Positions 1-14,041 of a stretch of 64,000 bases of DNA are shown one piece after another. Within the stretch, counting starts at the first letter, position 1, and each line of letters begins with the position of its first letter. The notes under the pieces were generated by a model. The model had not been told where the DNA came from and did no database searches. It saw only the letters and a list, made by a program, of their open reading frames with translations. This DNA is from a virus (Duplodnaviria; Caudoviricetes), in IMG/VR virus record IMGVR_UViG_3300025098_005131; one strand, given 5' to 3'. Both the position numbers and the translations under genes were made by a program.

Positions 1-41
1 GTGATTAGTAGTAGTTGTAGGATGGAGATGGGGGATTTGAT

Positions 42-242
42 ATGACGTATATGATTGGTGGAGTGTTAGGATTGGGGTTATTGATGTATGTATTAGTGAT
101 GTTTTTGTTTTTGCGTGGGAAGAGTGGATTAGAGAGGGAGGTAGAGAGGAAGATGAAGTTGGGGATGGAGTTGCAGCGTAGTGGGAAGTTGAGGGAGTAT
201 GGTGAGTTGATGAGGGAGATAGAGGAGTTGGAGGGGAAGTGA
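42..242 (+). CDS. small membrane-anchored hypothetical protein
   Basis: N-terminal TM helix and charged helix, ends just before a promoter. Confidence 0.6.
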   Translation: MTYMIGGVLGLGLLMYVLVMFLFLRGKSGLEREVERKMKLGMELQRSGKLREYGELMREIEELEGK

Positions 243-341
243 TTGTGTGTTTGTTATGAGATTTATCGAGTGTATATTGAGTATGCGAGAGAGTATAATA
301 TAATATAGGGAATCAATCAATTATTTGAGAGGGGTTATGAT

Positions 342-749
342 ATGGTTAGATCATTGGTAGAAGTAGAGTTTCATGAGATTAATCCGTTTGAAGAGATAGT
401 GTATGTGCATGATCATTCTGAGCATAATATGTTGGGAGAGTTGCATACGAGGGAGAGGGGAGTGGAGGCAGTGACGTATGCGGGGAGCGTAGATCATGTA
501 GAGAAGTTTGATTTGAGGGATGTGACGAAGACTTGGGATTCGCAGGTGAGGGTGGAGTGGGGATTTCATAAGGGAGAAGAGTTTGATGAGGTGTTGCATA
601 TACCTGTTAATATAAGTCAGCAGCCTATATTGGGGAATTTAGTTTTGGTGAACTTATTGAAGGCGCATAATGTTGGGTATGTGACGTTAGGGAAGATTAA
701 TGAGGATAAGTTTATGAAGTTAGAAGATTTCTGTGAGAATTATTTATAG
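342..749 (+). CDS. hypothetical protein, paralog of the C-terminal part of 8115-8735
   Basis: DVTKTWDSQ/DITKVWDSQ and HIPVNI/HIPLNI shared. Follows a promoter and SD. Confidence 0.75.
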   Translation: MVRSLVEVEFHEINPFEEIVYVHDHSEHNMLGELHTRERGVEAVTYAGSVDHVEKFDLRDVTKTWDSQVRVEWGFHKGEEFDEVLHIPVNISQQPILGNLVLVNLLKAHNVGYVTLGKINEDKFMKLEDFCENYL

Positions 750-826
750 GTGTAGGTTAGATTAACTTTGTATTATAATATACTATAAGGTACGTTCAAT
801 CGATCATTCAATTAGAGGGATATATT

Positions 827-1339
827 ATGAAGAGGGTAAAAGATGTTTTTGGTGAGCTGCGAGCTTTAGCGGATGTAGCGCAGGAGATTTATGTGAGTAA
901 TGATCCTTATGATAAGTTTACTTCGGAGTATTCAGCAGCGAACAAGTTAGCTAGAGATTTTCAAGCGGGTATAGCTCCGGAGCTTGTTGTGAGTCTTAAG
1001 AAGGCGCAGGAGTGGATTAGGGAGAAGCATTCTGTAGTTTATTGTGGGAGTAATTGGACTAATTGTTTTGGTATGGAAGAAGCGTTGTTTGAGTATGTGG
1101 GATTTAATCGGTATAGGATGGATAGGGAGCGTGGAGAAGAGGAGTTTAAGGTAGTAGATGTTTCTCCTAAGCAGATGATTGTAGATGGTTATAAGTATTA
1201 TAAGATTCTTGCGGATCGAGAAGCAGATGTTTTGGCTGCAGGTGGTGTTGATACAGAGAGAGTCTTTACTTTAGAAGATGCTATAGCAAGTATGTTATTA
1301 GATTTGAAAGAGTTTGATGATCAGTTAGAGTCTGTATAG
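827..1339 (+). CDS. hypothetical protein
   Basis: ORF fills a promoter-to-promoter cassette. Confidence 0.7.
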   Translation: MKRVKDVFGELRALADVAQEIYVSNDPYDKFTSEYSAANKLARDFQAGIAPELVVSLKKAQEWIREKHSVVYCGSNWTNCFGMEEALFEYVGFNRYRMDRERGEEEFKVVDVSPKQMIVDGYKYYKILADREADVLAAGGVDTERVFTLEDAIASMLLDLKEFDDQLESV

Positions 1340-1413
1340 GTGTAAATGAGATTGATTGTATATTATAATATATTATAAGGTATGTTTGGATTATTATTTT
1401 AGGAGGAAGCAGC

Positions 1414-1779
1414 ATGGATTTATTTAATGAGGCAGCTGAAGCTTTTGATAGCAGCAGAGATTTTGTGAAGTATCATATTGAAGAAGAGAGTTCTATTGAG
1501 TGGATGGGAGTTGCTGCGTGTGTTTCTGGTTTGGAGCCTGTTTCTTTGATTGAGAGAGATGATGGATTGTTAGGGCTTGCCTTTAGATATAAGGAGACAA
1601 TAACAGAAGCTCATTTTTCTACTGATGTTCATGGTAATGAAAGAGTTAATCCTGGTCAGCTTAGGTATTATCCTTCAGATATATTATATGGTGTTTATGA
1701 TCAGCAAGGAAATGTTTTTACAACTAAGAAAAAAGACTTTGAATCTTTATGTTCTAGTTTGAATGCAAGAGGCGTTTAG
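1414..1779 (+). CDS. hypothetical protein
   Basis: SD AGGAGG, cassette ORF. Confidence 0.7.
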   Translation: MDLFNEAAEAFDSSRDFVKYHIEEESSIEWMGVAACVSGLEPVSLIERDDGLLGLAFRYKETITEAHFSTDVHGNERVNPGQLRYYPSDILYGVYDQQGNVFTTKKKDFESLCSSLNARGV

Positions 1780-1839
1780 TAGTATTGTATATGTGTAAAT
1801 AAGACTAGTGTGTAGGTATAATATACCATAGGGGGATAT

Positions 1840-2172
1840 ATGATAAAAAGAAAAAGAAGATCTGATAGAAATCATATAATCTACCGGCTGAAGAATGCTG
1901 AGACAGGTAATGAGTATATTGGTATTACTGTGCAAAAAGATCAAAAAGTTATTGGTAGTGTGAAGTTACGTTTTAAGCAGCATGTATCTCGTTGTAAAAC
2001 ATCTGGTAAGCAGTGGTTATTATATCAGGAAATGAGAGAGTATGGATATGAGAGCTTTAGTTATGAAGTGATAGAAGTTGTTCGTGGTAAGAAGAAAACT
2101 CATCAGAGAGAAATAGAATATATCAATGTTTATAATCCTCAGCTTAACACTAAGAAGAAATCAATTATATAG
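1840..2172 (+). CDS. GIY-YIG family endonuclease (stand-alone catalytic domain)
   Basis: IIY...YIGIT, RFKQH, E..YI...LN motifs. Confidence 0.8.
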   Translation: MIKRKRRSDRNHIIYRLKNAETGNEYIGITVQKDQKVIGSVKLRFKQHVSRCKTSGKQWLLYQEMREYGYESFSYEVIEVVRGKKKTHQREIEYINVYNPQLNTKKKSII

Positions 2173-2184
2173 AAGGGTAGTATC

Positions 2185-2637
2185 ATGAGCAGCACGAACT
2201 TTAAGAAGGCATATACTGAGACGGGTTATCAGCGGACGACTTATATGTCGCATTCAGTCGAGGGTATCTGTAATTTTGATGTGCATGGAGATGATTATTC
2301 TGAGAGTATTGAGGTTTTTCATAAATCTTATGTTGCTTCACGCAAGCAGCTCTTTAAAGATATAGGTTTGGGCAAGTGGAGTGAAGACAGCGACATAGGT
2401 TATCAGAATTATCTACGTGTTTTAGAGAGCGGAGAGTATGAGTTAGGTTATTATGAGAACGAATTTTCTTACAGGGTGCCAGCACAGATTAAGTGTTGTG
2501 ATGTCTGGTTAAGCTTAGGTAAGTTTACTAATACTTGTAGCTTGTGTGATGCAGATTATAATGGAAGCGGGCAGCTCTTAGCCTCTCGTTCCCAATGGGG
2601 TGAGGAGACTGGTGAGCATTGGTCTGAGTGTACGTGA
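2185..2637 (+). CDS. hypothetical protein with Cys cluster
   Basis: C-terminal CC..FTNTCSLC..YNGSGQLLA..SQWGEETGE. Confidence 0.7.
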   Translation: MSSTNFKKAYTETGYQRTTYMSHSVEGICNFDVHGDDYSESIEVFHKSYVASRKQLFKDIGLGKWSEDSDIGYQNYLRVLESGEYELGYYENEFSYRVPAQIKCCDVWLSLGKFTNTCSLCDADYNGSGQLLASRSQWGEETGEHWSECT

Positions 2638-2736
2638 TCTAGAAAGACACTTAATAAGTGTAAATAAGATTAGTGGTATATTATAATATGTTATAAGGCA
2701 ACAACATTCAATCATTCAATTAAAAGGAAATCCAAT

Positions 2737-3363
2737 ATGGGTAAATATACTTCTAATGATAATAGGTCTATGCAGTGTAATCCTAATAACGAAAGATACT
2801 GGTCGTCAAGAGGGTATAATGATTATGATGATGAAGATTCATATTCCAATAATGATCATGACAAATGGGCTAAAGAAAGAGATTTTAAATACAAAGAAGC
2901 AATTGATGAAACGGCTTTTAGCTATTTAGACAAAAAAATTCTATTCAAAGATGCTACTCGGGCTGTATTTGGTTTTGATCCTATTGGTGGAACCGTTGAG
3001 TATTTAAGTGAAAACATTCTTGAAGAAAAGTTAATCTTTAAAAAAGACTTTAATATTAAAAGGTCTGATTTGAGAAGTTTTCTTTTAAACAATACTCCTT
3101 CAAAGAATATTGAAATAAAACAAAATTGGTTTATAAGGGACATAGTTGAAAAAGAAGGTGGTTATTTTCGAAGATACGAGTATTTATTATTAGAAATGTT
3201 TGTGAGTTTAAACTATGTTATATTCTTATTTAACGATTATCGGCAAGGATTGAAGTCTATACCAAGTTACGGCCCTCAGCGTTGGATGTTTAAAGACTTT
3301 AAGAGTGGAGAGCTCGATTTTAAGACAGACAACGTAGTAGAAGATTTGTCTGAGTGTTATTAA
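2737..3363 (+). CDS. hypothetical protein
   Basis: Cassette ORF with SD. Confidence 0.65.
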   Translation: MGKYTSNDNRSMQCNPNNERYWSSRGYNDYDDEDSYSNNDHDKWAKERDFKYKEAIDETAFSYLDKKILFKDATRAVFGFDPIGGTVEYLSENILEEKLIFKKDFNIKRSDLRSFLLNNTPSKNIEIKQNWFIRDIVEKEGGYFRRYEYLLLEMFVSLNYVIFLFNDYRQGLKSIPSYGPQRWMFKDFKSGELDFKTDNVVEDLSECY

Positions 3364-3379
3364 TTTAGAAAGTTTTACT

Positions 3380-3622
3380 ATGAAGTATATGTTATTGTTA
3401 TTAGTTATGTTTTCTATTGCATGCAGCGAAACTAACGCTGCTGAAGGCGATCAGAAATACGAATTAGTTTGTAAGCATCCTATAGGACATATTGTGAGAT
3501 ATCCCGTAAGCTTTGATACGTTCTGGAGTCCTGTCAATACAAGAGGCGGAATCTTTAGATTTAAGACGTTAAATGGACTGATTGTTAGAAGTAGTTTTTG
3601 CCATGGAGAAGCTAAGCATTAA
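3380..3622 (+). CDS. small lipoprotein, paralog of 12933-13211
   Basis: Lipobox IAC. Shared CKHP..G.V.Y...F...NG..V.SS.C. Confidence 0.7.
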   Translation: MKYMLLLLVMFSIACSETNAAEGDQKYELVCKHPIGHIVRYPVSFDTFWSPVNTRGGIFRFKTLNGLIVRSSFCHGEAKH

Positions 3623-3666
3623 AAGACTTGTTTATAGCGATTTGTAATACTTCTGTAATGTTATTA

Positions 3667-3725
3667 ATGTGTAAATAAGATTTATTTTGTATTATAATAT
3701 ACCATAAGGTACATTCAATCATTCA
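3667..3725 (+). repeat. 59-bp promoter repeat, copy A (58/59 identical to 5792-5850)
   Basis: Direct sequence comparison. Confidence 0.9.
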
Positions 3726-3746
3726 ATCACACAAGGCTTTATTATT

Positions 3747-4652
3747 ATGAAGAAATTTTTAATAGCTGCATCTATAATAGCTAATTCTGGCTGTGGCGTT
3801 TTGATGACAGTCGAAAGTCATAATATGATTATCTCAGCTCGAGATAAGATTATAAAACGTAACATGCAAGAAATCAGCGTTAAAAAAAGAACAATAGAGG
3901 AAATAGAAGAAAAGAATGCAAATTATAAATATAAACATGTTGTTCTAAATCAAAGCATTAAAAGAAAAGAAAAGTCTGTTAGTGTCTTGCGTCAGCAAAT
4001 AAAGAGTATCAATGCTAAGTATGCAGATTTAAACAAACAATTTACTAAAGTATTAGCAGAGAAGAGTAAGCTGGAGTCAAACAGAGTTAAGCAAATTGCA
4101 ATTAGTCAGGATAGTAAAGAGTTTCTAGCACTATATTTGCTTGCTTTAGAAGAAGGCTACGATGGTTTCTTTCGACAATATGCAGAAAACTTTTCAGAGT
4201 CTGGACATAGTAGTAAGAGTGTAGAAAAAGAAGTTAGAAAGATTTATGATCAAACTTTAAAACTTGGAAAGAAAACTATATTTGAGAAAAGTGCAGACTT
4301 TAAAATTGAGTACATAAACAAAAAAGTTCAAGGTGAAATAAGTTTTGAAGTAGGTAATCATTTATATGTGCATGAGTTCATAGTAAAAAGAGATTTAAGC
4401 AAACTTAAAAATAGCGGCATAAATTATGTTGTAGGCTTTAAAGTAAAAAATGACAATTGTTTTAAGATAATAGAAAAGCCTTTATACGACAAGTACGGGG
4501 ATCCGGTCATTGAGTATAAGGATGTTAATGATTATGAGCAGGTAGCAGTAGAAAAATATAAAAAAGTAAAGAAGAAATATAAGTGTTTAAAGGTAAACGC
4601 AAGTTACTTAGTCTACACATACAATGGAGAAGCTATAAAATATGAAACTTAA
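3747..4652 (+). CDS. coiled-coil putative lipoprotein
   Basis: Signal with SGC and a long heptad region. Confidence 0.6.
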   Translation: MKKFLIAASIIANSGCGVLMTVESHNMIISARDKIIKRNMQEISVKKRTIEEIEEKNANYKYKHVVLNQSIKRKEKSVSVLRQQIKSINAKYADLNKQFTKVLAEKSKLESNRVKQIAISQDSKEFLALYLLALEEGYDGFFRQYAENFSESGHSSKSVEKEVRKIYDQTLKLGKKTIFEKSADFKIEYINKKVQGEISFEVGNHLYVHEFIVKRDLSKLKNSGINYVVGFKVKNDNCFKIIEKPLYDKYGDPVIEYKDVNDYEQVAVEKYKKVKKKYKCLKVNASYLVYTYNGEAIKYET

Positions 4653-5790
4653 TAAAAAGCATTTGTTGATTTTGTGCGTGCCGTTATTTTGCTGCAGTGA
4701 AAGTAAAAACATAACGACTTCTGACAAAGAACAAATTAGGCAAGAAGATCGTAATGAAAAAGGATTTGATCTGGAAACAGGAGAAGAAAAACTATTTTGT
4801 GCTAAAGAAGACTTAATCTGTAATGAAGACTTGGACTGCACAACTTCAACAGGCGTTTCAGCTTCTTGCGTGCAAGGTGTATGTGTTACTGATGGTCCGG
4901 GCTGTATGTATGATAGTGATTGTTTTGATAGCAATCCGTGTGTTGTGCATACTTGTGAAGAAGGAATGTGTAAACCTTATAGTAGTTCAAGTAAAAGTAG
5001 CTGTGAGGATCCTGAGACTGGATTGAGTGGTATTTGCGCAGGCACTACTTGTGTTGTATTAAAAGAGACGTTAGAAGAAAACATAAAAAACGTTTGTGAT
5101 ACTGAAGCTGAAGGTTTTAATGAAGACGAATGTGTTTTTTCAAGTAATAGTTGTATGAAGTTTTCTATGAAAGAAAATACTTTTAAGCAGCTGCCAAACG
5201 GAACTGAGTGTGAGAACGATCTTGGCGCTCCAGGCCAATGCCAATCAGGTTATTGTAGATATGATGATGACATAGAAATAAAAACTGAAGTTAAGTGTGG
5301 TTACAAGAATTATTATGACAACTGGGGTAGAGTAATCTATAGAGAAAAAAAGTGCAGAAACAAAAAGAAAATCCAGTTTAAGATTAGTAAAGAAAAGTTA
5401 AGCAAATCAGCAAAGAAACTTAAGCGATCGATAATGAAAAACTTAAGATACGATGTGCATGTTGGAATAGTTCACAGTCATAGTGGTGGTTATAATATAG
5501 TTATAACAAACACAAACAAAAAAGATAAAGTTAGAGGTATGATTGATCCATCTTTGATTGCATGGGAAATTGCATCGTTTACAAAGAAAACAAATTGGAG
5601 AAGCGCAAACTTACAAGTATGGACAAGACCTAGACACGATGGCTGGCATATGTCTACTAGCGGTTCAAGAAGAGCAGTTAGAAAAGGTCAACAAGGTGCG
5701 GGATGGTTAGGCATGTATGGTGTAGTTAACGTTCGAACGTTTAGAGTGTGGTTGGAAAAGAATTTTAGATATATTGAAAAGGGTTATTGA
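4642..5790 (+). CDS. Cys-rich repeat putative lipoprotein
   Basis: LFCC lipobox. C..D.DC.DSNPC....C..G.C repeats. Confidence 0.65.
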   Translation: MKLNKKHLLILCVPLFCCSESKNITTSDKEQIRQEDRNEKGFDLETGEEKLFCAKEDLICNEDLDCTTSTGVSASCVQGVCVTDGPGCMYDSDCFDSNPCVVHTCEEGMCKPYSSSSKSSCEDPETGLSGICAGTTCVVLKETLEENIKNVCDTEAEGFNEDECVFSSNSCMKFSMKENTFKQLPNGTECENDLGAPGQCQSGYCRYDDDIEIKTEVKCGYKNYYDNWGRVIYREKKCRNKKKIQFKISKEKLSKSAKKLKRSIMKNLRYDVHVGIVHSHSGGYNIVITNTNKKDKVRGMIDPSLIAWEIASFTKKTNWRSANLQVWTRPRHDGWHMSTSGSRRAVRKGQQGAGWLGMYGVVNVRTFRVWLEKNFRYIEKGY

Positions 5791-5791
5791 T

Positions 5792-5850
5792 ATGTGTAAA
5801 TAAGATTTATTTTGTATTATAATATACCATAAGGTACGTTCAATCATTCA
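5792..5850 (+). repeat. 59-bp promoter repeat, copy B
   Basis: Direct sequence comparison with 3667-3725. Confidence 0.9.
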
Positions 5851-5869
5851 TTTAAAAAGGATATAATAT

Positions 5870-6340
5870 ATGAATCCAGCAATCCAGAAACTAAACGAGC
5901 TTATTTGTGAAGAATATAATGTCGAGATAAAGCTTGATCAATCTCTTATACACGACTCTTACGATGAAGGTGAGTTAGAAGAGTATTATTTTTATCATAA
6001 TGTTGCTGAATACTGTTTTTACTCTCAACCTGACACTTTATCTGAAAAGTTAAGAAATAAGTTAAACTTCATCTCAAATGGAGAATTGCAGACTGAAATT
6101 GTTTCTGATTTAGATAGTGATGATGAGCTTAGTTGTTTTGAAGACAGACTTTGTATGATGCAGCAGACAAGAGAAGATAGGACACAACCATCTGAAGATG
6201 AAGTTGAGTTATGGAAAAAGGGAGAGTTTAAGCTGTTTAATCTTTATACAGAGTTTAAGATTTACTTTAATGGTCAACAGATTTCAGATCTTGATCTAAT
6301 CAGAGATCTGGTAAAAGAAAATACGTATCTAACAGCATGA
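5870..6340 (+). CDS. hypothetical acidic protein
   Basis: Cassette ORF with SD. Confidence 0.65.
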   Translation: MNPAIQKLNELICEEYNVEIKLDQSLIHDSYDEGELEEYYFYHNVAEYCFYSQPDTLSEKLRNKLNFISNGELQTEIVSDLDSDDELSCFEDRLCMMQQTREDRTQPSEDEVELWKKGEFKLFNLYTEFKIYFNGQQISDLDLIRDLVKENTYLTA

Positions 6341-6350
6341 TGAGGTTGAG

Positions 6351-6857
6351 TTGATGAAGAAGTTTATTGTATTATTGGTTACAGCATTTATGATGTCTGC
6401 TGCTGCAGTTCAAGCTAAGCCTAAAGAGTTATCTGGCCCTAGGCTAGGATTGACGTATATTACCCCTGGAGAAATAACAAATGAGATTGATGGAAGTTTC
6501 ATAACACAGTATGGCTGGCAATTTGAAACAAGATTTGTTTCTGGAGATGAGTTAGCTGGTTTAGTAGAGTGGGTGCTTTTAGCAGGTGGATTAGAGAAGG
6601 GATACGTATTACCATCAGTAACTTCTATAATTGGTTTAAGAGCTAAGAATGGTTTTGAAATAGGAGCTGGACCTAATTTATCTTTAGTGGGCGTTGGTTT
6701 AGCTTTTGCTATTGGATATAACTTTAGTATAGGAAGTTTAAATCTACCTTTAAACTTTTCTTGGGTGCCTTCAACACGAATTGAAGATGAGGATGATTCG
6801 TCTAAAACTCTTGATGCCGGGCATAGAGTTTCTTTAACTTTTGGGTTTAATATGTAG
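6351..6857 (+). CDS. putative outer-membrane beta-barrel protein
   Basis: Signal peptide (AVQA), amphipathic Gly/aromatic strands, C-terminal LTFGFNM. Confidence 0.6.
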   Translation: MMKKFIVLLVTAFMMSAAAVQAKPKELSGPRLGLTYITPGEITNEIDGSFITQYGWQFETRFVSGDELAGLVEWVLLAGGLEKGYVLPSVTSIIGLRAKNGFEIGAGPNLSLVGVGLAFAIGYNFSIGSLNLPLNFSWVPSTRIEDEDDSSKTLDAGHRVSLTFGFNM

Positions 6858-6948
6858 AGTAATCTTAGCGTGTAATTAGGTTCAACTTTATATTATAATA
6901 TATCATAAGGTAAAAACAAACAATCAATCAATCAAAAGGAAAACAATA

Positions 6949-7185
6949 ATGAGTAACAAATATAGATTTGAAGAAATAAAAGAGCAAATCAAAGAACTAC
7001 TTGATGAGGCATTTGATCTTGTTCCTGATCATGCAAGAGCTCGAGCTGAGTCTTATTGGTATGCACACATATCTACAGCATTAGACGAAGATCATGGTTA
7101 TCTTGGTGGTAGTATGTGTAGCATGCAAGATACCTTGGAAGAGTTTGATGAAGAGGATGAAGAAGATGAAGAGGATGAAGACTAA
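6949..7185 (+). CDS. hypothetical protein with acidic tail
   Basis: Cassette ORF. Confidence 0.65.
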   Translation: MSNKYRFEEIKEQIKELLDEAFDLVPDHARARAESYWYAHISTALDEDHGYLGGSMCSMQDTLEEFDEEDEEDEEDED

Positions 7186-7346
7186 TGCTGTATACTGTTT
7201 GGGTTGGTGGACAAGAAGTTAATGATTATTACTTCGATAACATTACTAAAGCAAGACTTTTGGCAAGTAAATATGTTAACAAAGGATATACAGACGTGTG
7301 TATCGAAGCGTTTAAAAAAGAAACATTAAAAGAAAGAGATCAATAA
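7185..7346 (+). CDS. small hypothetical protein (53 aa, below track cutoff)
   Basis: MLYTVWVGGQEVNDYY..., start overlaps the previous stop (TAATG). Confidence 0.6.
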   Translation: MLYTVWVGGQEVNDYYFDNITKARLLASKYVNKGYTDVCIEAFKKETLKERDQ

Positions 7347-7347
7347 T

Positions 7348-7566
7348 ATGCCAATGCCTAGAGAATATACTATTATTATGCGAGACTTAGTTGAAAACGA
7401 GGTCTTAGATCCTAAAGAAGTTTTGTTTAGCCTTCTAAACTGGTTGCCGGAAGATGATGTATATATGTTCAGTCAGGATGAATATGATGTAGCAACCAAT
7501 TCTGAGTATAAATCAAAGTATGACGCTTTGGATGCAAGCAATGAGGAAATAGAAGAATATGATTAA
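7348..7566 (+). CDS. hypothetical protein
   Basis: Operon packing. Confidence 0.6.
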   Translation: MPMPREYTIIMRDLVENEVLDPKEVLFSLLNWLPEDDVYMFSQDEYDVATNSEYKSKYDALDASNEEIEEYD

Positions 7567-7750
7567 GAATCCTTTTAAGACTGGTGACATTATTAATTTT
7601 AGAAGTCTTTACTATGGTTTAATAGTTAAAGCGAAATACCATAATAGCTACATCTTTCTTGAGGTTTTAAATACAAGTAATCATGTTAGACAGCTTAATT
7701 TGACGCTTTTAGAAAATCATAATTACGCTTATAAAGTTATTAACGTGTAA
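7559..7750 (+). CDS. small SH3/KOW-like hypothetical protein
   Basis: FKTGDIINF..YGLIVK pattern. Stop is the TAA of a GTGTAA promoter hexamer. Confidence 0.55.
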   Translation: MIKNPFKTGDIINFRSLYYGLIVKAKYHNSYIFLEVLNTSNHVRQLNLTLLENHNYAYKVINV

Positions 7751-7818
7751 GTTAGATTAATTGTTGGTTATAATATATTATAAGGCAACAACAAACATTC
7801 ATTCAATAAGGACATAAT

Positions 7819-8028
7819 ATGTTTTTTATATTTACTCACAACGATCAAAAAGTTTTCGAAGGCATTTTAAAAGAAAATGCTTTCAAGATAAGCAAACATA
7901 TACAGAGTAATCCAAACGACAGCTTTTCGCTTAAGATTGTAAAGCCGCTTAAAACAAAAGTTAAAGTTCTTAAAGAGATAACAAACACATGTGACATCAC
8001 AGAGTATTGCTTGTATAGCTTAATGTAA
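7819..8028 (+). CDS. hypothetical protein
   Basis: Cassette ORF. Confidence 0.6.
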   Translation: MFFIFTHNDQKVFEGILKENAFKISKHIQSNPNDSFSLKIVKPLKTKVKVLKEITNTCDITEYCLYSLM

Positions 8029-8114
8029 TACTCTTATCGTGTAACTTAGATTAATTTCATATTATAATATACCATAAGGTACATTCAATCATTCAATCAA
8101 AAAGGACATTTAAT

Positions 8115-8735
8115 ATGACACTTTCAAGAGATAAATACGTTCCAAATAGTTTAGAAAACATCGAAAAGCTTACACGAAAAATTTTGGAAAGCATGGATTT
8201 CGATACAATGCGGGAGTCAGCTTACCAAGGTTTAATTAATCATTATACTGATAATGATCAATGTTTTGTTGAGGATTATTATAAGACATTTTCAGACGAA
8301 GATCCTGAGTTAAACGGTTTTCAAGAAGAAGAAGCTGATAAGATAATTTACTATCATGGTCATCATTCCAATCCATGTGTAGTAGGAGAAATCCACAAGC
8401 ACGAAACTGTAAAAATGAGTGATGGTTCAATGCACAAGGGTATTGAAGTTATCATAATAACACATGACATTATATGTGAAGACTATGATGATAACCTTAG
8501 CGACATTACCAAAGTCTGGGATAGTCAAACGCAATCTGAAGTTTGTAACAGACGATATGATACAGATCCAGATACATGTGTTCACATTCCCCTAAATATA
8601 GGTGAACATACCAATTTAAGCAATCAAGTCCTCAAGCAAATTTTATTAAATAACAATGTAGAGTTTGTATCTTTTGGTCGTAAAGATGATCTAACAAGTC
8701 TCAGCAATTTCTTAAAGAACAATTTAGGAGCATAA
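8115..8735 (+). CDS. hypothetical protein, paralog of 342-749 with extra N-terminal region
   Basis: Alignment by eye. Confidence 0.75.
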   Translation: MTLSRDKYVPNSLENIEKLTRKILESMDFDTMRESAYQGLINHYTDNDQCFVEDYYKTFSDEDPELNGFQEEEADKIIYYHGHHSNPCVVGEIHKHETVKMSDGSMHKGIEVIIITHDIICEDYDDNLSDITKVWDSQTQSEVCNRRYDTDPDTCVHIPLNIGEHTNLSNQVLKQILLNNNVEFVSFGRKDDLTSLSNFLKNNLGA

Positions 8736-8738
8736 GAT

Positions 8739-8939
8739 ATGAAGTTCTATGCTTATAAGCCTTCACCATATGGCCAAGAGCCGATTGGTAAGAATGGCAG
8801 AATTCTATTTAAAAGTAACACGAACGAAGACGCAATTAAACATACAGAAAGTATTCTTGGTAATAGATACATGCTGTTTAGTTATACTACTATCTATAAA
8901 GACAAAAAAAAGTATAAGCTTGTGATGGCTTCTGTTTAA
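8739..8939 (+). CDS. hypothetical protein, similar to 14042-14257
   Basis: YAY...FKS....AIK.....G...Y.LFS shared. Confidence 0.6.
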   Translation: MKFYAYKPSPYGQEPIGKNGRILFKSNTNEDAIKHTESILGNRYMLFSYTTIYKDKKKYKLVMASV

Positions 8940-8965
8940 AGTAATTAGGTTTGAAAGGATAAGAT

Positions 8966-9259
8966 ATGTTTCATTTTTCAGAGCAGTGGCGTATAAAACC
9001 TGAAAGAGAAGCTTTAATTGATCCAGCTGCAGACTTTGTTGGTGAGACTAAATTACTCAAGAAGCCTTCACTGAAAGATTTATATGACAAGGGTGTTAAG
9101 GTAAGAAGAAGTAGTTGGTGCAGAGGTGCTGCTGATATAGAAAACTATGCAAACAAAATGGAAGACATCACAGGTAAAAAAGAGTTCAGAGCATATCATT
9201 ATTTTGATAGCGAATATAAGATGTGGTGCACAGAGTACTATGAGTTAACGTATCCTTAG
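8966..9259 (+). CDS. hypothetical protein
   Basis: SD and operon packing. Confidence 0.6.
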   Translation: MFHFSEQWRIKPEREALIDPAADFVGETKLLKKPSLKDLYDKGVKVRRSSWCRGAADIENYANKMEDITGKKEFRAYHYFDSEYKMWCTEYYELTYP

Positions 9260-9267
9260 GTAAATGT

Positions 9268-9570
9268 ATGAAGAAAATTAAAAGATTAAACAACGGTTTT
9301 ATTATCAGTAAATGGCGTTCTATGATTGGCAGTGAAAGAGAAGTTGAAGGCGAGTTAATATGCTATAGTAATCACAGTGGTAATCTTAAACTATATAATG
9401 ACGGAAGTATTTACTATTACAAGTTATTGATTGCTGATATTGTTGACGGGGTTCATACAGTCTATGATCACACAGCAACAGGTGGAAGCTTTGTGTCTAA
9501 AACTACAAGTCGTAGAGTAAATACTTTAAAAGAATACGCATTAAAGGTAGTAAGCTATAATGAAAAGTGA
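9268..9570 (+). CDS. hypothetical protein
   Basis: Operon packing. Confidence 0.6.
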   Translation: MKKIKRLNNGFIISKWRSMIGSEREVEGELICYSNHSGNLKLYNDGSIYYYKLLIADIVDGVHTVYDHTATGGSFVSKTTSRRVNTLKEYALKVVSYNEK

Positions 9571-9784
9571 CAAGATGAGTTTTTTTGGAGTTGAAGTTGA
9601 GAGAGACTGTATTACTAAGCTGCCTTCTTTTTTCAGGTATGATAACAGGAGATGGGATTACGCAATTAAGACTAATTCTGGAACCGCTAAAGATTTTGCA
9701 ATGAAACTGCAGTCTACAGGAATTTTCAGAACAGCACAAATTCCAGAATCTGGTGTCTGGATCATTAAAGAGATAAGACACTAA
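9560..9784 (+). CDS. hypothetical protein
   Basis: Ends just before a promoter. Confidence 0.55.
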   Translation: MKSDKMSFFGVEVERDCITKLPSFFRYDNRRWDYAIKTNSGTAKDFAMKLQSTGIFRTAQIPESGVWIIKEIRH

Positions 9785-9835
9785 TCGTGTAATTTAGATT
9801 CATTTTATATTATAATATACCATAAGGCAACAACA

Positions 9836-9931
9836 ATGATTTATATCACATCAGGAATCATTATATCGTTAATCGCTTACTCTTTCTATATTGTGTACAA
9901 TATATGCACAGGAAAAATCTACAGGAGATAA
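9836..9931 (+). CDS. 31-aa single-TM peptide
   Basis: MIYITSGIIISLIAYSFYIVYNICTGKIYRR, directly after the promoter at 9787. Confidence 0.4.
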   Translation: MIYITSGIIISLIAYSFYIVYNICTGKIYRR

Positions 9932-9933
9932 AA

Positions 9934-10311
9934 ATGGAATCGATCACAGTCAAAGTAAATGTTAGTGACAATCCTTGGCTTGCAAACTATAAAGAGTTTT
10001 CTTTTTCCAAGGAAAAAATTGTGACCATTGCAAAAGATCTTGTAGTTGAATGCACAGGTAGAGACTATAAGGCTTCACACGATTACGGTAAACATGTTTC
10101 TTTTGTTATGGAAAAATCTTGGGATAACACATGTGGTTCGATCATACCTCTTTATAAAGCTTTACAAGTTGTTTTAAGAGAGTTGAAAAAACCTGATGAG
10201 GGTTGGAGTGGTGGTGCAACTGCTGCAATAAGATGTATTGAAAGAAGAATGGCTTACGCTACACCAGGCTTTATCGAAGCAAAAAGATATAATGAAATAT
10301 ACGGGAGTTAA
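9934..10311 (+). CDS. hypothetical protein
   Basis: SD AGGAGA supports a start at 9934. Confidence 0.65.
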   Translation: MESITVKVNVSDNPWLANYKEFSFSKEKIVTIAKDLVVECTGRDYKASHDYGKHVSFVMEKSWDNTCGSIIPLYKALQVVLRELKKPDEGWSGGATAAIRCIERRMAYATPGFIEAKRYNEIYGS

Positions 10312-10334: not shown

Positions 10335-10544
10335 ATGGCTGATGATTTTGCTTTACTTTTTACAAGTCTTTGGTTTTTTTTATTGACAATCATGTTATCC
10401 ATTGCGAAAAACTTGTTTTGTTTTGAATGCATAGGCACTTTAAATACATCATTAATAGCTTTACTCTGCATCCTTTGCAGCCATGAAATTGCTGTTACAA
10501 TATCTTCGAGATTTTTCAAGGTGAATAAAAACCAAAAGAATTAA
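10335..10544 (+). CDS. small membrane protein
   Basis: Two hydrophobic stretches. Confidence 0.45.
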   Translation: MADDFALLFTSLWFFLLTIMLSIAKNLFCFECIGTLNTSLIALLCILCSHEIAVTISSRFFKVNKNQKN

Positions 10545-10626
10545 TTCTTCGTGTAAATTAGACCAAATACCAATTATAATATACCATAAGGTAACAACAA
10601 CAAATTTTTTAAAAAGGACATTAAAT

Positions 10627-11322
10627 ATGAACAACAACTTAATTGAAATTACAACTCCACTTCAATCTAAAAACGGAACTCGTATGTTTGAGTGCACTCG
10701 TACCGGAGCACATTACGGAAGTTACGCATCAGGTTACGTAAGAAGAAAAACTAACGGAAGTCACAATACTAAACGTTTTTACCAGTTAAACAAAAAGAAA
10801 AATTTCCCTGTGTTTAATGCTGCACTCAATATGACATTCAAAAATACGCAGCGTGTCATGATTGATACAGAAGAAGAAAGGCTTGCGCTTATTAATCAGC
10901 GAAGTTTAAAGTTTAAGTCTAATACACAACAAGTTAATACACAACAAGTTAATACACAACAAGTTAATACACAACAAGAAGAAGTTATGCTTAAAACTAA
11001 TACTACTACAAACACAAATCTTGATAAAAGTATATCTCATAGAAGCAGATCTTATGCTAATGCTAGAAAGAACTTGAAGTGGCCATCATACATTGTCCAG
11101 GTTGTTCACTCAAGTATGATGCTTAACGAAACACCTGGCATTATCGCAAGCCGTTTAGACCAGATGCTAACAGATATCCCAGGACATAGGTTTAATTTCA
11201 ACTCTCAGGAAGCAAAGATTGAAGCTATTCATAATGTCATGCAACACTTACAGTCTCGAGCTCGCCAATCTGTTAATCGTATGATTGATCACATTGATAA
11301 TGTAGATAGAACTAGAGGATAG
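10627..11322 (+). CDS. hypothetical protein with NTQQV repeats, N-terminus similar to 16948-17334
   Basis: KNGT..F...G..Y....G...R shared. Confidence 0.65.
   Translation: MNNNLIEITTPLQSKNGTRMFECTRTGAHYGSYASGYVRRKTNGSHNTKRFYQLNKKKNFPVFNAALNMTFKNTQRVMIDTEEERLALINQRSLKFKSNTQQVNTQQVNTQQVNTQQEEVMLKTNTTTNTNLDKSISHRSRSYANARKNLKWPSYIVQVVHSSMMLNETPGIIASRLDQMLTDIPGHRFNFNSQEAKIEAIHNVMQHLQSRARQSVNRMIDHIDNVDRTRG
10921..10978 (+). repeat. 15-bp tandem repeat AATACACAACAAGTT x about 4 (in frame)
   Basis: Direct. Confidence 0.95.
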
Positions 11323-11343
11323 AACTAGAGGATAGAACTAGAG
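11305..11343 (+). repeat. 13-bp tandem repeat GATAGAACTAGAG x3 spanning the stop codon
   Basis: Direct. Confidence 0.95.
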
Positions 11344-11355
11344 AGATTCTCTTGC

Positions 11356-11421
11356 GTGCAACTTAGATTAAATTCATATTATAATATACCATAAGGCAAC
11401 AACAATTAATCATTCAAAAGG
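11356..11421 (+). repeat. 66-bp promoter repeat, copy C (63/66 identical to 11693-11758)
   Basis: Direct comparison. The pair brackets one gene. Confidence 0.9.
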
Positions 11422-11427
11422 TCTTAA

Positions 11428-11703
11428 ATGAAAAACAATTATTCAGCAAGCTTGGCATCTGATGTGATAAGAGGTAGCAGAAATTTAGGTAGAAATAGAG
11501 AACTAAATAATCTATCTTCAGATGACTTAATTAACTTAATTAAAGACTACGTTAACAAGTACGGTCAGCCTGAAAATTATAATGGCATGTTGGTTTGGTC
11601 AAATGTTTCAGGTAACACTTATAGTTTAAGTGCCTATAAAAACAACAAGCCTTTCAATCCAGAAGAATTAAATCTAAATAATGCTCTCTTAAGTGTAACT
11701 TAG
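11428..11703 (+). CDS. hypothetical protein
   Basis: Sole gene between 66-bp repeats C and D. Confidence 0.65.
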   Translation: MKNNYSASLASDVIRGSRNLGRNRELNNLSSDDLINLIKDYVNKYGQPENYNGMLVWSNVSGNTYSLSAYKNNKPFNPEELNLNNALLSVT

Positions 11704-11758
11704 ATCAACTTCATATTATAATATACCATAAGGCAACAACAATTAATCATTCAAAAGG
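11693..11758 (+). repeat. 66-bp promoter repeat, copy D
   Basis: Direct comparison with 11356-11421. Confidence 0.9.
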
Positions 11759-11766
11759 ACTTTATT

Positions 11767-12534
11767 ATGAATACCAACATTCAAAACATCAATACTAATA
11801 ATAACAACCAGCCTGTAGGGGTTTCCATGAACACAACAAATTCTTTGATTCAAGCACTTGTTACTCACTTTAATGATAATCCTCAAGGATTTACTTCTTA
11901 TCGAAAAGAAATTGAAAGCCTTCTCAAGGAAAATATCAAGCCTATTGCTTCTCGCAGTTCTAAAGTTGGTGATAACTGGCGTGCTGATCTTAAATCCAAG
12001 TTCAGCGGCCGAGGTGCTAAATGGGTCTTTGTTTCGCTTGAAAGCATCGAACAAACACTCGTTCAGCTTGAAACTAACGGCATTGATTGCGCTGACTATC
12101 GTAAAAACGTTGTGAAGCTTGGTAAGGCTTGGGTTCGATTTAATGGTGCTCGGGTTGACAGTGGTATTAAATGTGCTGCATTTGAAGTTCGTACTGAAGG
12201 CTCAACCATTGATCACCCCAAGCAGGTTCATATGATTAATGTTGATGACTTGGATGATTTAATTGAGGTTATGCCTGGTACGCCAAAAGGTTTAAAGCTT
12301 GAAGAAGACGCAGCTCCAATGCCTAGAATTTCTAAGTCTAAAGTAGAGAACAAACCAAAATCAAAACCAGCTGTTAGCGAGCTTGAAGCTTTAAGTGAAG
12401 AAATTAATCTAGAGCTTCGAGAGCCAGAACTAAATGACACTCCAGAAAGTAACGATCCTGCAGACTGGGAAGCATTCTTAGCTTCAGAAGGTCTTATTGA
12501 TGATGACTTTGATATGATTGATGACGAGATCTAA
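11767..12534 (+). CDS. hypothetical protein, SGRG..W family paralog 1, acidic tail
   Basis: FSGRGAKW..KAWVRF..FEVRTEGSTIDHP..TPKGLKL. Confidence 0.75.
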   Translation: MNTNIQNINTNNNNQPVGVSMNTTNSLIQALVTHFNDNPQGFTSYRKEIESLLKENIKPIASRSSKVGDNWRADLKSKFSGRGAKWVFVSLESIEQTLVQLETNGIDCADYRKNVVKLGKAWVRFNGARVDSGIKCAAFEVRTEGSTIDHPKQVHMINVDDLDDLIEVMPGTPKGLKLEEDAAPMPRISKSKVENKPKSKPAVSELEALSEEINLELREPELNDTPESNDPADWEAFLASEGLIDDDFDMIDDEI

Positions 12535-12607: not shown

Positions 12608-12680
12608 CCTCTTGTAGCTCAGTGGTAAGAGCAGTATTCTTAAAAAGTAAAGGTCGGCAGTTCAATCCTGCCCAAGAGGT
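12608..12680 (+). tRNA. non-canonical tRNA, anticodon UAA, short variable loop
   Basis: Perfect acceptor stem CCTCTTG/CAAGAGG, D arm, GGCAG-TTCAATC-CTGCC T arm. Weak anticodon stem, U73, no CCA. Confidence 0.7.
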
Positions 12681-12730
12681 CTCTGTTTTACGACAGGATT
12701 AATCTTATTCAATACAAAGGAAATTATATT

Positions 12731-12925
12731 ATGAATCATTCTACATACACTACATTCAATAATCAAGCAAACGTTCTAGTTGTATACTCAGCTGTGTCTC
12801 ATGTTATTAATGACAAAAGCGAAGGCTGTTGGATTTGGTTCCATAGTGGTAAGTGTGTTCACGTCGCTGAATCGATGAGCGATGTAACAGCTGATGTTGG
12901 TGACTACCTTGACACTTTAAAATAG
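12731..12925 (+). CDS. hypothetical protein
   Basis: SD and ATG. Confidence 0.55.
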   Translation: MNHSTYTTFNNQANVLVVYSAVSHVINDKSEGCWIWFHSGKCVHVAESMSDVTADVGDYLDTLK

Positions 12926-12932
12926 GAGACAC

Positions 12933-13211
12933 ATGAAAACACTCATGCTTTCAGCTTTGCTTGTAATATGCGGTTGCAATTTTAAAGAGCCACGTCGCGA
13001 CGGCAAGACTAAAATCCCAGTTTTTAAAGTTATATGTAAACACCCACATAAAGGTTACGTATCTTATTTTGTCAAAGATGTTTACAAAAATATAAGACCA
13101 TATAAACATAGAAACTCTATCTGGTTTTTTAGAGATATCAATGGTGTTTTAGTTGAATCTAGTCTAGGGTGTTATACAGACTCCACCATGAAAGGCTTTA
13201 TGAAAAAATGA
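12933..13211 (+). CDS. small lipoprotein, paralog of 3380-3622
   Basis: ICGC lipobox and shared motif. Confidence 0.7.
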   Translation: MKTLMLSALLVICGCNFKEPRRDGKTKIPVFKVICKHPHKGYVSYFVKDVYKNIRPYKHRNSIWFFRDINGVLVESSLGCYTDSTMKGFMKK

Positions 13212-13510
13212 AATTACTAACAGTAAAAAGCTCTTTTGTGTTAAACAGTAAAGATTTAAATTGTATTGTGCCAGTAGGTGCTAAACTCAATTATATTAAG
13301 GAAACATATCACTTTTATCATGCTTATTATGAGTCACATAATTACAAGGCAGCTGCTGTGTATAAAGAAAAAGAGTTAGAATTAAGAGTTCATAGAGTTC
13401 ATGGGTCAAAAAGTTTTAAGATCTTAGACTGCAAGCCTACACATGGTGATAAAAGCAAAGCATACTGGCAGGACTTATTTGAAGAAGAGTGCCCGTTGGA
13501 GATTAGGTAG
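13208..13510 (+). CDS. hypothetical protein
   Basis: ATGA overlap start at 13208. Confidence 0.55.
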   Translation: MKLLTVKSSFVLNSKDLNCIVPVGAKLNYIKETYHFYHAYYESHNYKAAAVYKEKELELRVHRVHGSKSFKILDCKPTHGDKSKAYWQDLFEEECPLEIR

Positions 13511-13514
13511 TTTT

Positions 13515-13682
13515 ATGATAATCAATGAAGATTTACAAAGCATTGTAACTATTATACTTTTAATCTGTGCAGTATTTATGACTTTTTATCTTGTCGTCAT
13601 TTTTCCAACTTATTTCGCCGGATTCTTTTTTGGTCTATTGTTCTACTCTTTTATAGATGCGTTTATAAAGAAAGATCTGTAA
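13515..13682 (+). CDS. small membrane protein
   Basis: Two TM segments. Confidence 0.5.
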   Translation: MIINEDLQSIVTIILLICAVFMTFYLVVIFPTYFAGFFFGLLFYSFIDAFIKKDL

Positions 13683-13687
13683 GGTAA

Positions 13688-13996: not shown

Positions 13997-14041
13997 AATT
14001 ATTGTTTATAATATAAAGTCAGGAAAAAAAGGAGAATAAAT

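What the first reader, a model, noticed from the sequence alone, without database searches (positions are those of the whole stretch)
1..3000. Extreme C-depletion / G-excess at the left edge that decays inward
Seen (hand count): nt 1-240 contain about 103 G and only 4 C, yet the region codes for plausible proteins, including a paralog of 8115-8735. The bias fades over a few kb, and by about 10-12 kb the + strand has C/A-rich stretches. Established: single-stranded exposure gives C->T and A->G deamination gradients. Inference: the window starts at or near a genome terminus, origin or first-ejected end with prolonged + strand exposure or targeted deamination.
Basis: partly seen in the sequence, partly recalled or inferred. 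Interest (0 to 1): 0.62.

Follow-up and report, generated by a model that had tools for sequence, protein, structure and literature searches.

The report
Strand-bias flip marking probable phage origin
The near-absence of C at the window's left edge is real, but it is not a genome end: it is the right half of a sharp, conserved reversal of DNA strand composition inside an uncultured marine giant phage, most likely the mutational scar of a fixed site where DNA copying starts in both directions.

Summary
Observation confirmed exactly: nt 1-240 hold 103 G and 4 C, the extreme of the whole window. The bias is strongest at silent codon positions. GC3 skew is 1.0, 0.91, 0.93, 0.64, 0.68, 0.32, 0.13 for the first seven genes.

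The terminus reading is not supported. The window edge is only a window cut, inside a gene. About 0.45 kb further left, eight related metagenomic contigs show a conserved ~280-nt spacer where the + strand flips from C/A-rich to almost C-free. Genes on both sides point the same way and use the same promoter type.

The bias follows position, not gene. Families found on both sides switch sign (12 of 12 pairs). In the right arm the copy nearer the flip is more skewed (57 of 64 pairs). Silent differences between arms are mostly C/T (39:2) and A/G (17:0). Mean GC3 skew runs from -0.61 just left to +0.98 just right, then decays over about 10 kb.

More distant relatives keep the flip and a CCAYTTGTTR motif there. 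Near a second flip, genes of both orientations share one sign.

Best reading (about 0.5): a replication start site with long-lived single-stranded or uncoupled outward synthesis. No experiment supports this. This scan noted similar extreme flips in other phages.

The parts
1..44 (+). 3' end (last 14 codons plus stop) of the first gene of the C-free zone, a small lipoprotein-like protein. The window cuts it.
   Evidence: Frame 1 reads VISSSCRMEMGDLI*, matching the end of L003:3953-4252. The family has GC3 skew 0.91-0.96 in L003, L001 and L002.
42..242 (+). 66-aa membrane/coiled-coil protein gene. It is the most extreme C-free gene: 4 C in 201 nt, GC3 skew 1.0, GC3 0.66.
   Evidence: Homologues at +187 to +507 nt from the flip all have GC3 skew 1.0. 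Homologues at +4.4 and +6.3 kb have 0.44 and 0.40.
342..749 (+). 135-aa early gene, GC3 skew 0.91. It is a paralogue of 8115-8735.
827..1339 (+). 170-aa early gene, GC3 skew 0.93.
1414..1779 (+). 121-aa early gene, GC3 skew 0.64.
1840..2172 (+). GIY-YIG homing-endonuclease gene, a mobile gene whose copies take on the local bias. GC3 skew is 0.68 here and 0.23-0.25 in copies 2.6-3.4 kb from the flip.
   Evidence: PHROG hits E 1e-11. Across copies, A>G is 12:2 at third positions.
2185..2637 (+). 150-aa early gene, GC3 skew 0.32.
1..10000 (+). Right arm of the strand-composition reversal: G/T excess and C/A deficit on the + strand, decaying inward. The reversal point itself lies about 250-470 nt left of window base 1, outside the window.
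750..779 (+). GTGTAR-N-TATAAT promoter-like site. Further sites lie at 1340-1369, 1793-1822, 2658-2687, 3669-3698, 5794-5823 and beyond. Their non-coding spacers follow the local skew.
   Evidence: 22 matches in the window against 0.33 expected by chance. Spacer G:C runs from 4:0 at 1340 to 1:4 at 10551 and 11693, read.
8115..8735 (+). 206-aa paralogue of 342-749, lying 8.6 kb from the flip. GC3 skew -0.26, close to the values of the genes around it.
10400..11800 (+). C/A-rich stretch of the + strand (GC skew -0.09 to -0.32), where the gradient has run out and gone slightly negative.

Best explanation
The C-free left edge is the right arm of a fixed, conserved strand-composition reversal. About 0.45 kb left of the window lies a ~280-nt non-coding spacer that carries a conserved CCAYTTGTTR promoter-like motif. 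On either side of it, the strand that runs 5'->3' away from the spacer has gained G and T and lost C and A. The effect is strongest within 1 kb and fades over about 3 kb to the left and about 10 kb to the right.

I read this as a mutational imprint of a replication start site. Leading strands are laid down outwards in both directions, while the displaced parental strands stay single-stranded, or are copied separately, for unusually long. C->T and A->G changes then accumulate on them. The principle is the same as in bacterial leading strands and the vertebrate mitochondrial heavy strand, but here it is local and about as strong as in mitochondria.

Shown: the reversal, its conservation, its dependence on position rather than on gene or transcript, and its transition-dominated spectrum.
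Inferred: that the point is an origin, and that single-strand exposure or uncoupled synthesis is the cause.
For: 1. Sharp sign switch between co-directional genes. In L003 and L001 the + strand ORFs left of the spacer have GC3 skew -0.3 to -0.93 and those to the right +0.9 to +1.0. Both sides use the same GTGTAA-N-TATAAT promoters and CA-rich leaders.

2. Eight of the nine contigs that hold the spacer element show the flip. More distant relatives (L015, L017, L022) keep both the flip and the motif CCAYTTGTTR at it.

3. Position decides the bias, not the gene.
- Families present on both sides switch sign in 12 of 12 pairs.
- Within the right arm the nearer copy has the higher skew in 57 of 64 pairs.
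- Spearman correlation of skew with distance is -0.80, p 1e-27.

4. The bias acts at all weakly constrained sites.
- Four-fold sites go from baseline A.40 C.09 G.06 T.45 to A.23 C.01 G.41 T.35 (right, 0-1 kb) and to A.33 C.29 G.04 T.34 (left, 0-1.5 kb).
- Promoter spacers follow the same trend.
- Amino-acid content shifts too.

5. The spectrum is transition-dominated. Silent differences between homologues across the flip are left C / right T 39:2 and left A / right G 17:0. Homing-endonuclease copies show A>G 12:2. GC3 and AT3 skews are coupled (rho -0.60).

6. The bias is a property of the DNA strand. Left of a second upward flip in G005, long ORFs of both orientations share the same + strand sign.

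7. The polarity (minus to plus along the + strand) is that of an origin, not a terminus.

8. There is no sign of selection for G-runs, G-quadruplex motifs or Shine-Dalgarno-like words beyond composition. G3+ runs give z -2.9, canonical G4 motifs number 0, GGAGG gives z -2.3.
Against: - No replication data exist for this uncultured phage. No replication genes were found in the related fragments searched.
- The bias does not persist along a whole replichore. It fades within about 10 kb, and GC3 skew is about 0 from 20 to 64 kb. An ordinary fork-direction effect is therefore not enough, and a special origin-proximal process has to be assumed.
- The first kb right of the flip is G+C-richer than average (0.40-0.46), unlike an A+T-rich unwinding element.
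- Four-fold sites in the first kb also show a net gain of purines (R 0.64 against 0.46), so deamination-type transitions are not the whole story.
- One family, the lipoprotein gene, stays C-free 3.9-4.7 kb from the flip in L001 and L002, without the spacer element. This needs either a recent relocation or a second, cassette-borne site.
- Spontaneous deamination during a short single-stranded phase may be too weak to give skews near 1. Selection on nucleic-acid composition cannot be excluded from sequence alone.
Confidence: 0.5

Rival explanations
1. Selection on the early transcripts. The RNA made just downstream of the conserved promoter is kept C-free, and the RNA at the end of the preceding block is kept C-rich and G-poor. 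The reason would be some RNA-level need:
- escape from Rho loading at the start of a unit and Rho-type stopping at its end;
- resistance to a C-dependent ribonuclease;
- little RNA secondary structure;
- independence from CTP.
For: - The fully C-free state begins about 50 nt after the promoter-like motif, that is, near the likely transcript start.
- The lipoprotein gene, with its own similar CTTGTT promoter, stays C-free when found 3.9-4.7 kb away.
- A C-poor, G-rich RNA lacks the C-rich stretches that Rho binds (established knowledge of rut sites). This lead came from earlier notes of this scan on other DNA.
Against: - Genes on the two sides have the same orientation and promoter class but opposite bias.
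- Near a second flip, genes of both orientations carry the same + strand sign. This fits a DNA-level cause, not an RNA-level one.
- The A/T skew changes together with the G/C skew, and the differences are mostly transitions. An RNA composition rule does not predict either.
- The C-rich left arm consists of translated genes with their own promoters, an odd place for a stop zone.
- The decay is smooth over about 10 kb and independent of gene family.
Confidence: 0.17
2. The flip marks a physical genome end or the edge of a long terminal repeat. The two arms would then be the two ends of the virion DNA, joined in assemblies. The bias would come from end-specific single-strandedness, from end-primed strand displacement, or from protection of first-entering DNA.
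For: - This resembles the early-gene terminal repeats of T5 and SPO1 (from my own knowledge).
- The polarity (the strand with its 5' end at the point is G/T-rich) fits displacement synthesis started at ends.
Against: - At least ten contigs from different samples read through the flip without a break.
- IMG/VR found no end repeats on these fragments.
- 5'->3' resection of an end would expose the opposite strand and predict the opposite polarity (inference).
- The strongest arms lie outside the block between the flips, where a terminal-repeat model predicts nothing.
- GC-containing palindromes are not depleted: 23.6 per kb in 1-1400 against 22.7 per kb in 20-64 kb, and 33 observed against 25 expected by shuffling. 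Restriction avoidance is therefore not achieved.
- Earlier notes call the phage T4-related (not checked here). Phages of that type usually have permuted ends.
Confidence: 0.12
3. Transcription-associated mutation. A very strong promoter at the flip keeps the non-template strand exposed, possibly through R-loops that feed back as the strand becomes G-rich. That strand deaminates, and the intensity falls along the transcription unit.
For: The right arm starts at a promoter-like motif and decays downstream. The changes are C->T and A->G on the non-template strand, which is the known direction of transcription-associated deamination.
Against: - The left arm is transcribed in the same direction yet has the opposite bias, growing toward the flip.
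- No convincing leftward promoter is present in the spacer: 4 consensus matches against 2.4 expected.
- The sign is independent of gene orientation in G005.
- G clusters that seed R-loops are under-represented, not enriched.
Confidence: 0.13

Closest known systems
Replication-associated strand asymmetry at bacterial and viral origins (GC/keto skew, 'chirochores')
   Same: - Sign switch from minus to plus at a point.
- G>C together with T>A on the outward (leading-type) strand.
- Independence from gene orientation.
- Strongest at silent sites.
   Different: - Amplitude is far larger: GC3 skew up to 1.0, against the roughly 0.05-0.3 that I recall for bacterial chromosomes (not checked in the papers searched here).
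- The effect is local, fading in 3-10 kb rather than lasting a whole replichore.
- At least two upward jumps lie only 7-10 kb apart.
Vertebrate mitochondrial heavy/light-strand asymmetry and its gradient with time spent single-stranded (strand-displacement replication)
   Same: - C->T and A->G on the displaced strand.
- A graded effect with distance from the start site.
- Comparable extremes at four-fold sites: here G 0.04 with C 0.29-0.45 in one arm, and C 0.01 with G 0.41 in the other.
   Different: - Here there are two mirror-image arms around one point in a double-stranded DNA phage of more than 236 kb.
- The gradient spans kilobases, not the genome.
- The replication mode is unknown.
Phage T4 oriF/oriG (promoter-primed R-loop origins) and ColE1 (RNA-primed start, with polymerase I copying the first kilobase or so)
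   Same: A promoter-like element sits at the start site. The effect is limited to the first few kb of outward synthesis, like the distance-limited mutation footprint of ColE1 leading-strand initiation (from my own knowledge).
   Different: - No A+T-rich unwinding element lies downstream.
- No T4-type helicase loader or polymerase was found in the fragments available.
- As far as I know, no such composition scar has been reported at the T4 origins.
Skew 'N-domains' of mammalian genomes (upward skew jumps at origins with a decline between them)
   Same: A sawtooth of upward jumps and gradual declines between neighbouring jumps, independent of gene direction.
   Different: The scale is kb rather than Mb, the amplitude is tens of times larger, and the peaks hug the jumps rather than declining linearly.

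Membership tests
Replication-origin type strand-asymmetry switch | Skew on one strand changes sign from minus to plus at a point | tested here: met
   Eight contigs go from -0.2..-0.48 to +0.7..+0.94 within about 300 nt.
Replication-origin type strand-asymmetry switch | Independent of gene orientation and of gene identity | tested here: met
   Co-directional genes have opposite bias. Families switch sign in 12 of 12 pairs. Genes of both orientations share a sign in G005.
Replication-origin type strand-asymmetry switch | Strongest at silent and non-coding sites, with G>C coupled to T>A | tested here: met
   GC3 against AT3 skew gives rho -0.60.
Replication-origin type strand-asymmetry switch | Bias persists along the whole replication arm | tested here: not met
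   The bias fades to about 0 by 8-12 kb and stays about 0 from 20 to 64 kb.
Replication-origin type strand-asymmetry switch | Initiation of DNA synthesis demonstrated at the site | not testable with these tools
Single-strand exposure (mitochondrial-type) mutation gradient | C->T and A->G on the exposed strand dominate | tested here: met
   Silent differences across the flip are C/T 39:2 and A/G 17:0, and transversions are fewer. Four-fold sites in the first kb also gain purines, so transitions are not the only change.
Single-strand exposure (mitochondrial-type) mutation gradient | Magnitude graded with distance from the start site | tested here: met
   The binned means decline monotonically in both arms.
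T4-type R-loop origin (promoter plus unwinding element) | Promoter at the site | tested here: inconclusive
   A conserved CCAYTTGTTR is followed by a -10-like hexamer at every flip. Promoter activity is not shown.
T4-type R-loop origin (promoter plus unwinding element) | A+T-rich unwinding element just downstream | tested here: not met
   The first 500 nt downstream are 0.40-0.46 G+C, above the 0.31 average.
Genome terminus / first-ejected end | The sequence lies at a physical end of the record or genome | tested here: not met
   The window starts inside a gene. The record continues at least 17.5 kb to the left (position data). Contigs read through. True virion ends could not be tested.
Restriction-site avoidance in leading DNA | Depletion of G/C-containing palindromes | tested here: not met
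   23.6 per kb in 1-1400 against 22.7 per kb elsewhere, and 33 observed against 25 expected by shuffling.
2-aminoadenine (Z) genome, considered as a source of A->G changes | PurZ rather than PurA | tested here: not met
   The protein of 43780-44976 (-) matches solved PurA structures at E 1e-64 and PurZ at 8e-11. NCBIfam gives PurA 309 bits against PurZ 122 bits. The GDEGKG motif is kept.

The most novel reading that the evidence does not exclude
These phages start replication at fixed promoter-linked sites by a long-lived, uncoupled strand-displacement phase. That would be a mitochondrion-like mode not described for large tailed phages. Alternatively, the outward strands are kept nearly C-free by selection, so that DNA synthesis can begin before the phage's modified-cytosine nucleotide pool exists. 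In either case, extreme local skew flips would be a sequence-only way to map initiation sites in uncultured phages.
Probability: 0.15. Interest if true: 0.85.

Novelty: new variant of a known kind. Interest (0 to 1): 0.62.

Why it matters
Strand-composition switches are the standard sequence clue to replication origins. They are normally weak and genome-wide. Here the switch is close to the maximum possible: silent-site GC skew goes from about -0.6 to +1.0 across 300 nt. It is also local, conserved across diverged relatives, and overrides both codon choice and amino-acid content of whatever gene cassette sits there.

If it marks initiation sites, it gives a testable map of origins in a large, uncultured marine phage lineage. 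It would also point to an unusually asymmetric way of copying DNA.

It matters for annotation as well. Composition-based gene finders, codon-usage measures and horizontal-transfer detectors will misjudge genes in these arms.

Earlier notes of this scan describe comparable extreme, orientation-independent flips in other, unrelated phages. The phenomenon may therefore be widespread, though I found no description of it in the papers searched.

Tried and rejected
- **Sequencing or assembly artefact.** Rejected: the same pattern, with conserved proteins, occurs in contigs from at least eight samples.
- **Amino-acid content as the cause.** Rejected: the third-position signal is the strongest.
- **Z-genome idea** (2-aminoadenine deaminating to G). 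Rejected: the enzyme is PurA-like, not PurZ-like.
- **G-quadruplex or R-loop-seeding G clusters, or a Shine-Dalgarno 'ribosome sponge'.** Rejected: G runs and GGAGG are under-represented against synonymous-codon shuffles, and there are no canonical G4 motifs.
- **Primase GTT sites or Chi-like GNTGGTGG.** No enrichment.
- **Restriction-palindrome avoidance.** Not seen.
- **Small RNA between the Fur-box-like palindrome and the T-run of the spacer.** The consensus fold is weak, with an unfavourable covariation term (+2.88). There are no Rfam matches.
- **Leftward promoter in the spacer.** Nothing above chance.
- **Searches that led nowhere.**
  - The first 6 kb against GenBank phages gave no match.
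  - The ligase gave only about 31% identity to Bacillus phages.
  - The 230-aa early protein gave no match.
  - The window's own sequence is absent from the viral and metagenome contig collections.
  - No whole genome is held for the window.
  - T4 gp59 and family-B polymerase were not found in five related fragments. This is uninformative, because those fragments cover only 16-41% of a genome.
- **Divergence against distance from the flip between close relatives.** Too mosaic to read.
- **Literature.** Two searches found no description of such local extreme skews in phages.
Full report
**1. The observation**

The count is exact. Window 1-240 holds A60, C4, G103, T73. No other 240-nt stretch of the 64 kb comes close. 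All windows with C<=8 start at nt 1-144, and beyond nt 3000 the minimum C is 14. Binomial P is 1.7e-12 for C and 2.6e-21 for G.

GC skew falls from 0.91 (1-200) to about 0.3 (2-7.5 kb). It reaches about 0 to -0.3 at 10.4-11.8 kb.

The stretch is densely coding on the + strand. The paralogy of 342-749 with 8115-8735 holds: 32% identity, E 3e-16.

GC3 skew is 1.0, 0.91, 0.93, 0.64, 0.68, 0.32, 0.13 for the first seven genes. Genes from 20 to 64 kb lie at 0 +/- 0.2.

**2. The window edge is not an end**

- The first 44 nt are the last 14 codons of a gene that is complete in a 97%-identical relative, L003:3953-4252.
- Position data attached to earlier notes place at least 17.5 kb of the same record to the left of the window. 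One unfollowed note describes a skew reversal about 450 nt before my first base and another about 7.8 kb before it.
- I could not read that DNA itself. No genome is held, and the window's sequence is absent from the contig collections. I therefore used relatives.

**3. What lies to the left**

L001 and L003 run past the equivalent of window base 1. Upstream there is a ~280-nt spacer. Beyond it are + strand genes with the opposite bias: GC3 skew -0.3 to -0.93, with raised GC3.

A 22-nt piece of the spacer retrieved nine contigs. Eight show the same flip: + strand GC skew -0.2 to -0.48 for about 2.5 kb on the left, and +0.7 to +0.94 on the right, decaying to about 0.3. The ninth (L006) is an unrelated context.

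Genes on both sides point the same way. They carry the same GTGTAA-N-TATAAT promoter-like sites and CA-rich leaders. That promoter pattern occurs 22 times in the window against 0.33 expected. Its non-coding spacers follow the local bias.

**4. Position, not gene, decides the bias**

The early-gene cassettes are heavily shuffled among relatives. This provides a natural experiment.

| Gene family | Position relative to flip | GC3 skew |
|---|---|---|
| 71-75 aa | -3.3 kb / +0.2 kb | -0.33 / +0.94 |
| 91-96 aa | left / right | -0.33 to -0.5 / +0.95 |
| 121-137 aa | left / right | -0.55 / +0.44 |
| Small membrane protein | within 0.5 kb / 4.4-6.3 kb | 1.0 / 0.40-0.44 |
| 342-749 and its paralogue at 8.6 kb | near / far | 0.91 / -0.26 |

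Across seven non-redundant loci:
- Homologues on opposite sides differ in the expected direction in 12 of 12 pairs.
- Within the right arm the nearer copy has the higher skew in 57 of 64 pairs.

Mean GC3 skew by distance from the flip:

| Distance (kb) | Mean GC3 skew |
|---|---|
| -5.2 to -3 | -0.12 |
| -3 to -1.5 | -0.39 |
| -1.5 to 0 | -0.61 |
| 0 to 0.5 | +0.98 |
| 0.5 to 1 | 0.86 |
| 1 to 2 | 0.68 |
| 2 to 3 | 0.47 |
| 3 to 5 | 0.35 |
| 5 to 8 | 0.22 |
| 8 to 12 | 0.05 |
| 12 to 20 | -0.13 |

Spearman correlation with distance in the right arm is -0.80, p 1e-27.

Proteins bend to the pressure as well. Amino acids whose codons all need C (P, H, Q, T, A) drop from 0.13 to 0.03 in two families.

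**5. The spectrum**

Four-fold site composition:

| Region | A | C | G | T |
|---|---|---|---|---|
| Baseline | .40 | .09 | .06 | .45 |
| Right, 0-1 kb | .23 | .01 | .41 | .35 |
| Left, 0-1.5 kb | .33 | .29 | .04 | .34 |

In codon alignments of three families that straddle the flip, strictly silent differences are as follows:
- left C / right T: 39:2
- left A / right G: 17:0
- left T / right G: 8:2
- left A / right T: 12:5

Copies of the mobile GIY-YIG endonuclease gene that lie nearer the flip have gained G for A, 12:2 at third positions.

GC3 and AT3 skews are coupled (rho -0.60).

So the same process acts on the + strand to the right and on the - strand to the left. It consists mainly of C->T and A->G on the outward-running strand. 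A smaller transversion component enriches G in the first kb.

**6. A property of the DNA strand, conserved in depth**

More distant relatives were found through a 230-aa early protein (45-62% identity). L017 and L022 show two upward flips about 9.5 kb apart, with a sawtooth between them.
- The second flip is again between co-directional genes. It carries the motif CCAYTTGTTR, followed by a -10-like hexamer and a tiny hydrophobic ORF.
- The motif sits at the flip in each of the eight non-redundant loci that show one. One further match in the fetched loci shows no flip, and neither does the window's single match at 57385.
- The Fur-box-like palindrome TGATAATGATTATCA of the close relatives is not conserved that far.

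Pooled over eight loci, the switch is centred about 150 nt upstream of the motif. The fully C-free state starts about 50 nt after it.

Left of the first flip in G005, long ORFs of both orientations (161-307 aa) share the same negative + strand GC3 skew.

**7. Interpretation**

The polarity is minus to plus, and the outward 5'->3' strand is G/T-rich. Together with orientation independence, the silent-site focus and the transition spectrum, these are the hallmarks of replication-associated asymmetry at an origin. They are also the hallmarks of single-strand exposure as in mitochondrial DNA.

Two things are unusual: the amplitude, and the decay over kilobases on both sides. A plain fork-direction effect should persist, and it does not.

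The simplest model that fits has three parts:
- Synthesis starts at a fixed site.
- The first few kb of each leading strand are made before the complementary strand is copied.
- The displaced parental strands therefore stay exposed longest next to the start site.

An error-prone or pool-biased first phase of synthesis would give the same polarity.

5'->3' resection from a break or an end would expose the opposite strand. On a deamination model it is therefore disfavoured.

I put about 0.5 on 'origin-type initiation site with an asymmetric first phase'.

**8. Rivals**

- *RNA-level selection (0.17).* Candidates are Rho escape and Rho stop zones, nuclease resistance, or unstructured RNA. It fits the start of the C-free state near the transcript start, and the lipoprotein cassette that stays C-free 3.9-4.7 kb away without the spacer. 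It does not explain opposite bias in co-directional genes of one promoter class, the coupled A/T skew, or orientation independence.
- *Transcription-associated mutation (0.13).* It fails on the left arm, and no leftward promoter stands out.
- *Terminus or terminal-repeat edge (0.12).* It cannot be excluded without reads. However, contigs read through, the strongest arms lie outside the inter-flip block, and palindromes are not depleted.

Motif-level tests found no selection for G runs, G4 motifs, Shine-Dalgarno-like words, GTT or Chi-like words.

A Z-base genome, which could have made A->G easy, is not supported: the enzyme is PurA-like.

**9. Novelty**

No cultured relative exists in the phage collection. 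Two literature searches found no description of local, near-maximal skew flips in phages.

Earlier notes of this scan report comparable flips in other phages. I did not test those.

I class this as a new variant of a known kind: replication-type strand asymmetry, extreme and local. The mechanism remains inferred.

Noticed in passing
L003:3742-3756 (and L001, L004, L005, L007-L010); about 465 nt left of window base 1: A perfect 7-1-7 Fur-box-type palindrome, TGATAATGATTATCA, sits in the conserved spacer about 160 nt upstream of the promoter-like motif. It is conserved in close relatives only. It might tie early expression or initiation to host iron status, or it might bind a phage protein.
   Followed up: partly
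window 42450-46695 (-): Three adjacent genes look like GMP reductase (IMPDH/GMPR fold without a CBS domain), adenylosuccinate synthase (PurA-like, not PurZ) and adenylosuccinate lyase (PurB). Together they would convert G nucleotides into A nucleotides, which would suit a 31% G+C phage. All three score below the NCBIfam equivalog cut-offs.
   Followed up: partly
window 750-28022 (+) and 39021-40619 (-): The promoter-like pattern GTGTAR-N14-20-TATAAT occurs 22 times against 0.33 expected. It usually precedes a CA-rich leader (tcaatcattcaat) and a Shine-Dalgarno site. This is a cassette layout like the promoter/stem-loop cassettes of T4-type hyperplastic regions.
   Followed up: partly
window 1840-2172 (+); L003:4988-5320, L001:5560-5892, L002:1787-2119: A free-standing GIY-YIG homing-endonuclease gene occupies different slots among relatives, 0.5-3.4 kb from the flip, always just upstream of the 150-aa Cys-rich gene.
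   Followed up: partly
L002:3081-3389 and L001:6854-7162: A second copy of the lipoprotein gene is C-free (GC3 skew 0.91-0.96) far from the flip. The gene before it has a dip in skew (-0.03), and skew is raised for about 2 kb after it. This may be a second, cassette-borne mini-flip.
   Followed up: partly
window 12608-18562 (+): Six tRNA genes: Leu-TAA twice, Met-CAT, Thr-TGT, Lys-TTT, Arg-TCT. Five of the six have anticodons starting with T and so read A-ending codons. The G-ending codons (AGG, TTG, AAG, GAG) that dominate the C-free genes would have to rely on wobble or host tRNAs.
   Followed up: no
window 46753-47673 (-): A UvdE-type UV-damage endonuclease gene (Pfam E 4e-50) lies next to the purine genes.
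   Followed up: no
L006:8000-8380: An unrelated viral contig carries three tandem Fur-box-like repeats (AATAATNATTATCAAAATCA) beside G- and C-rich blocks. It was found only because it shares the 22-mer.
   Followed up: no
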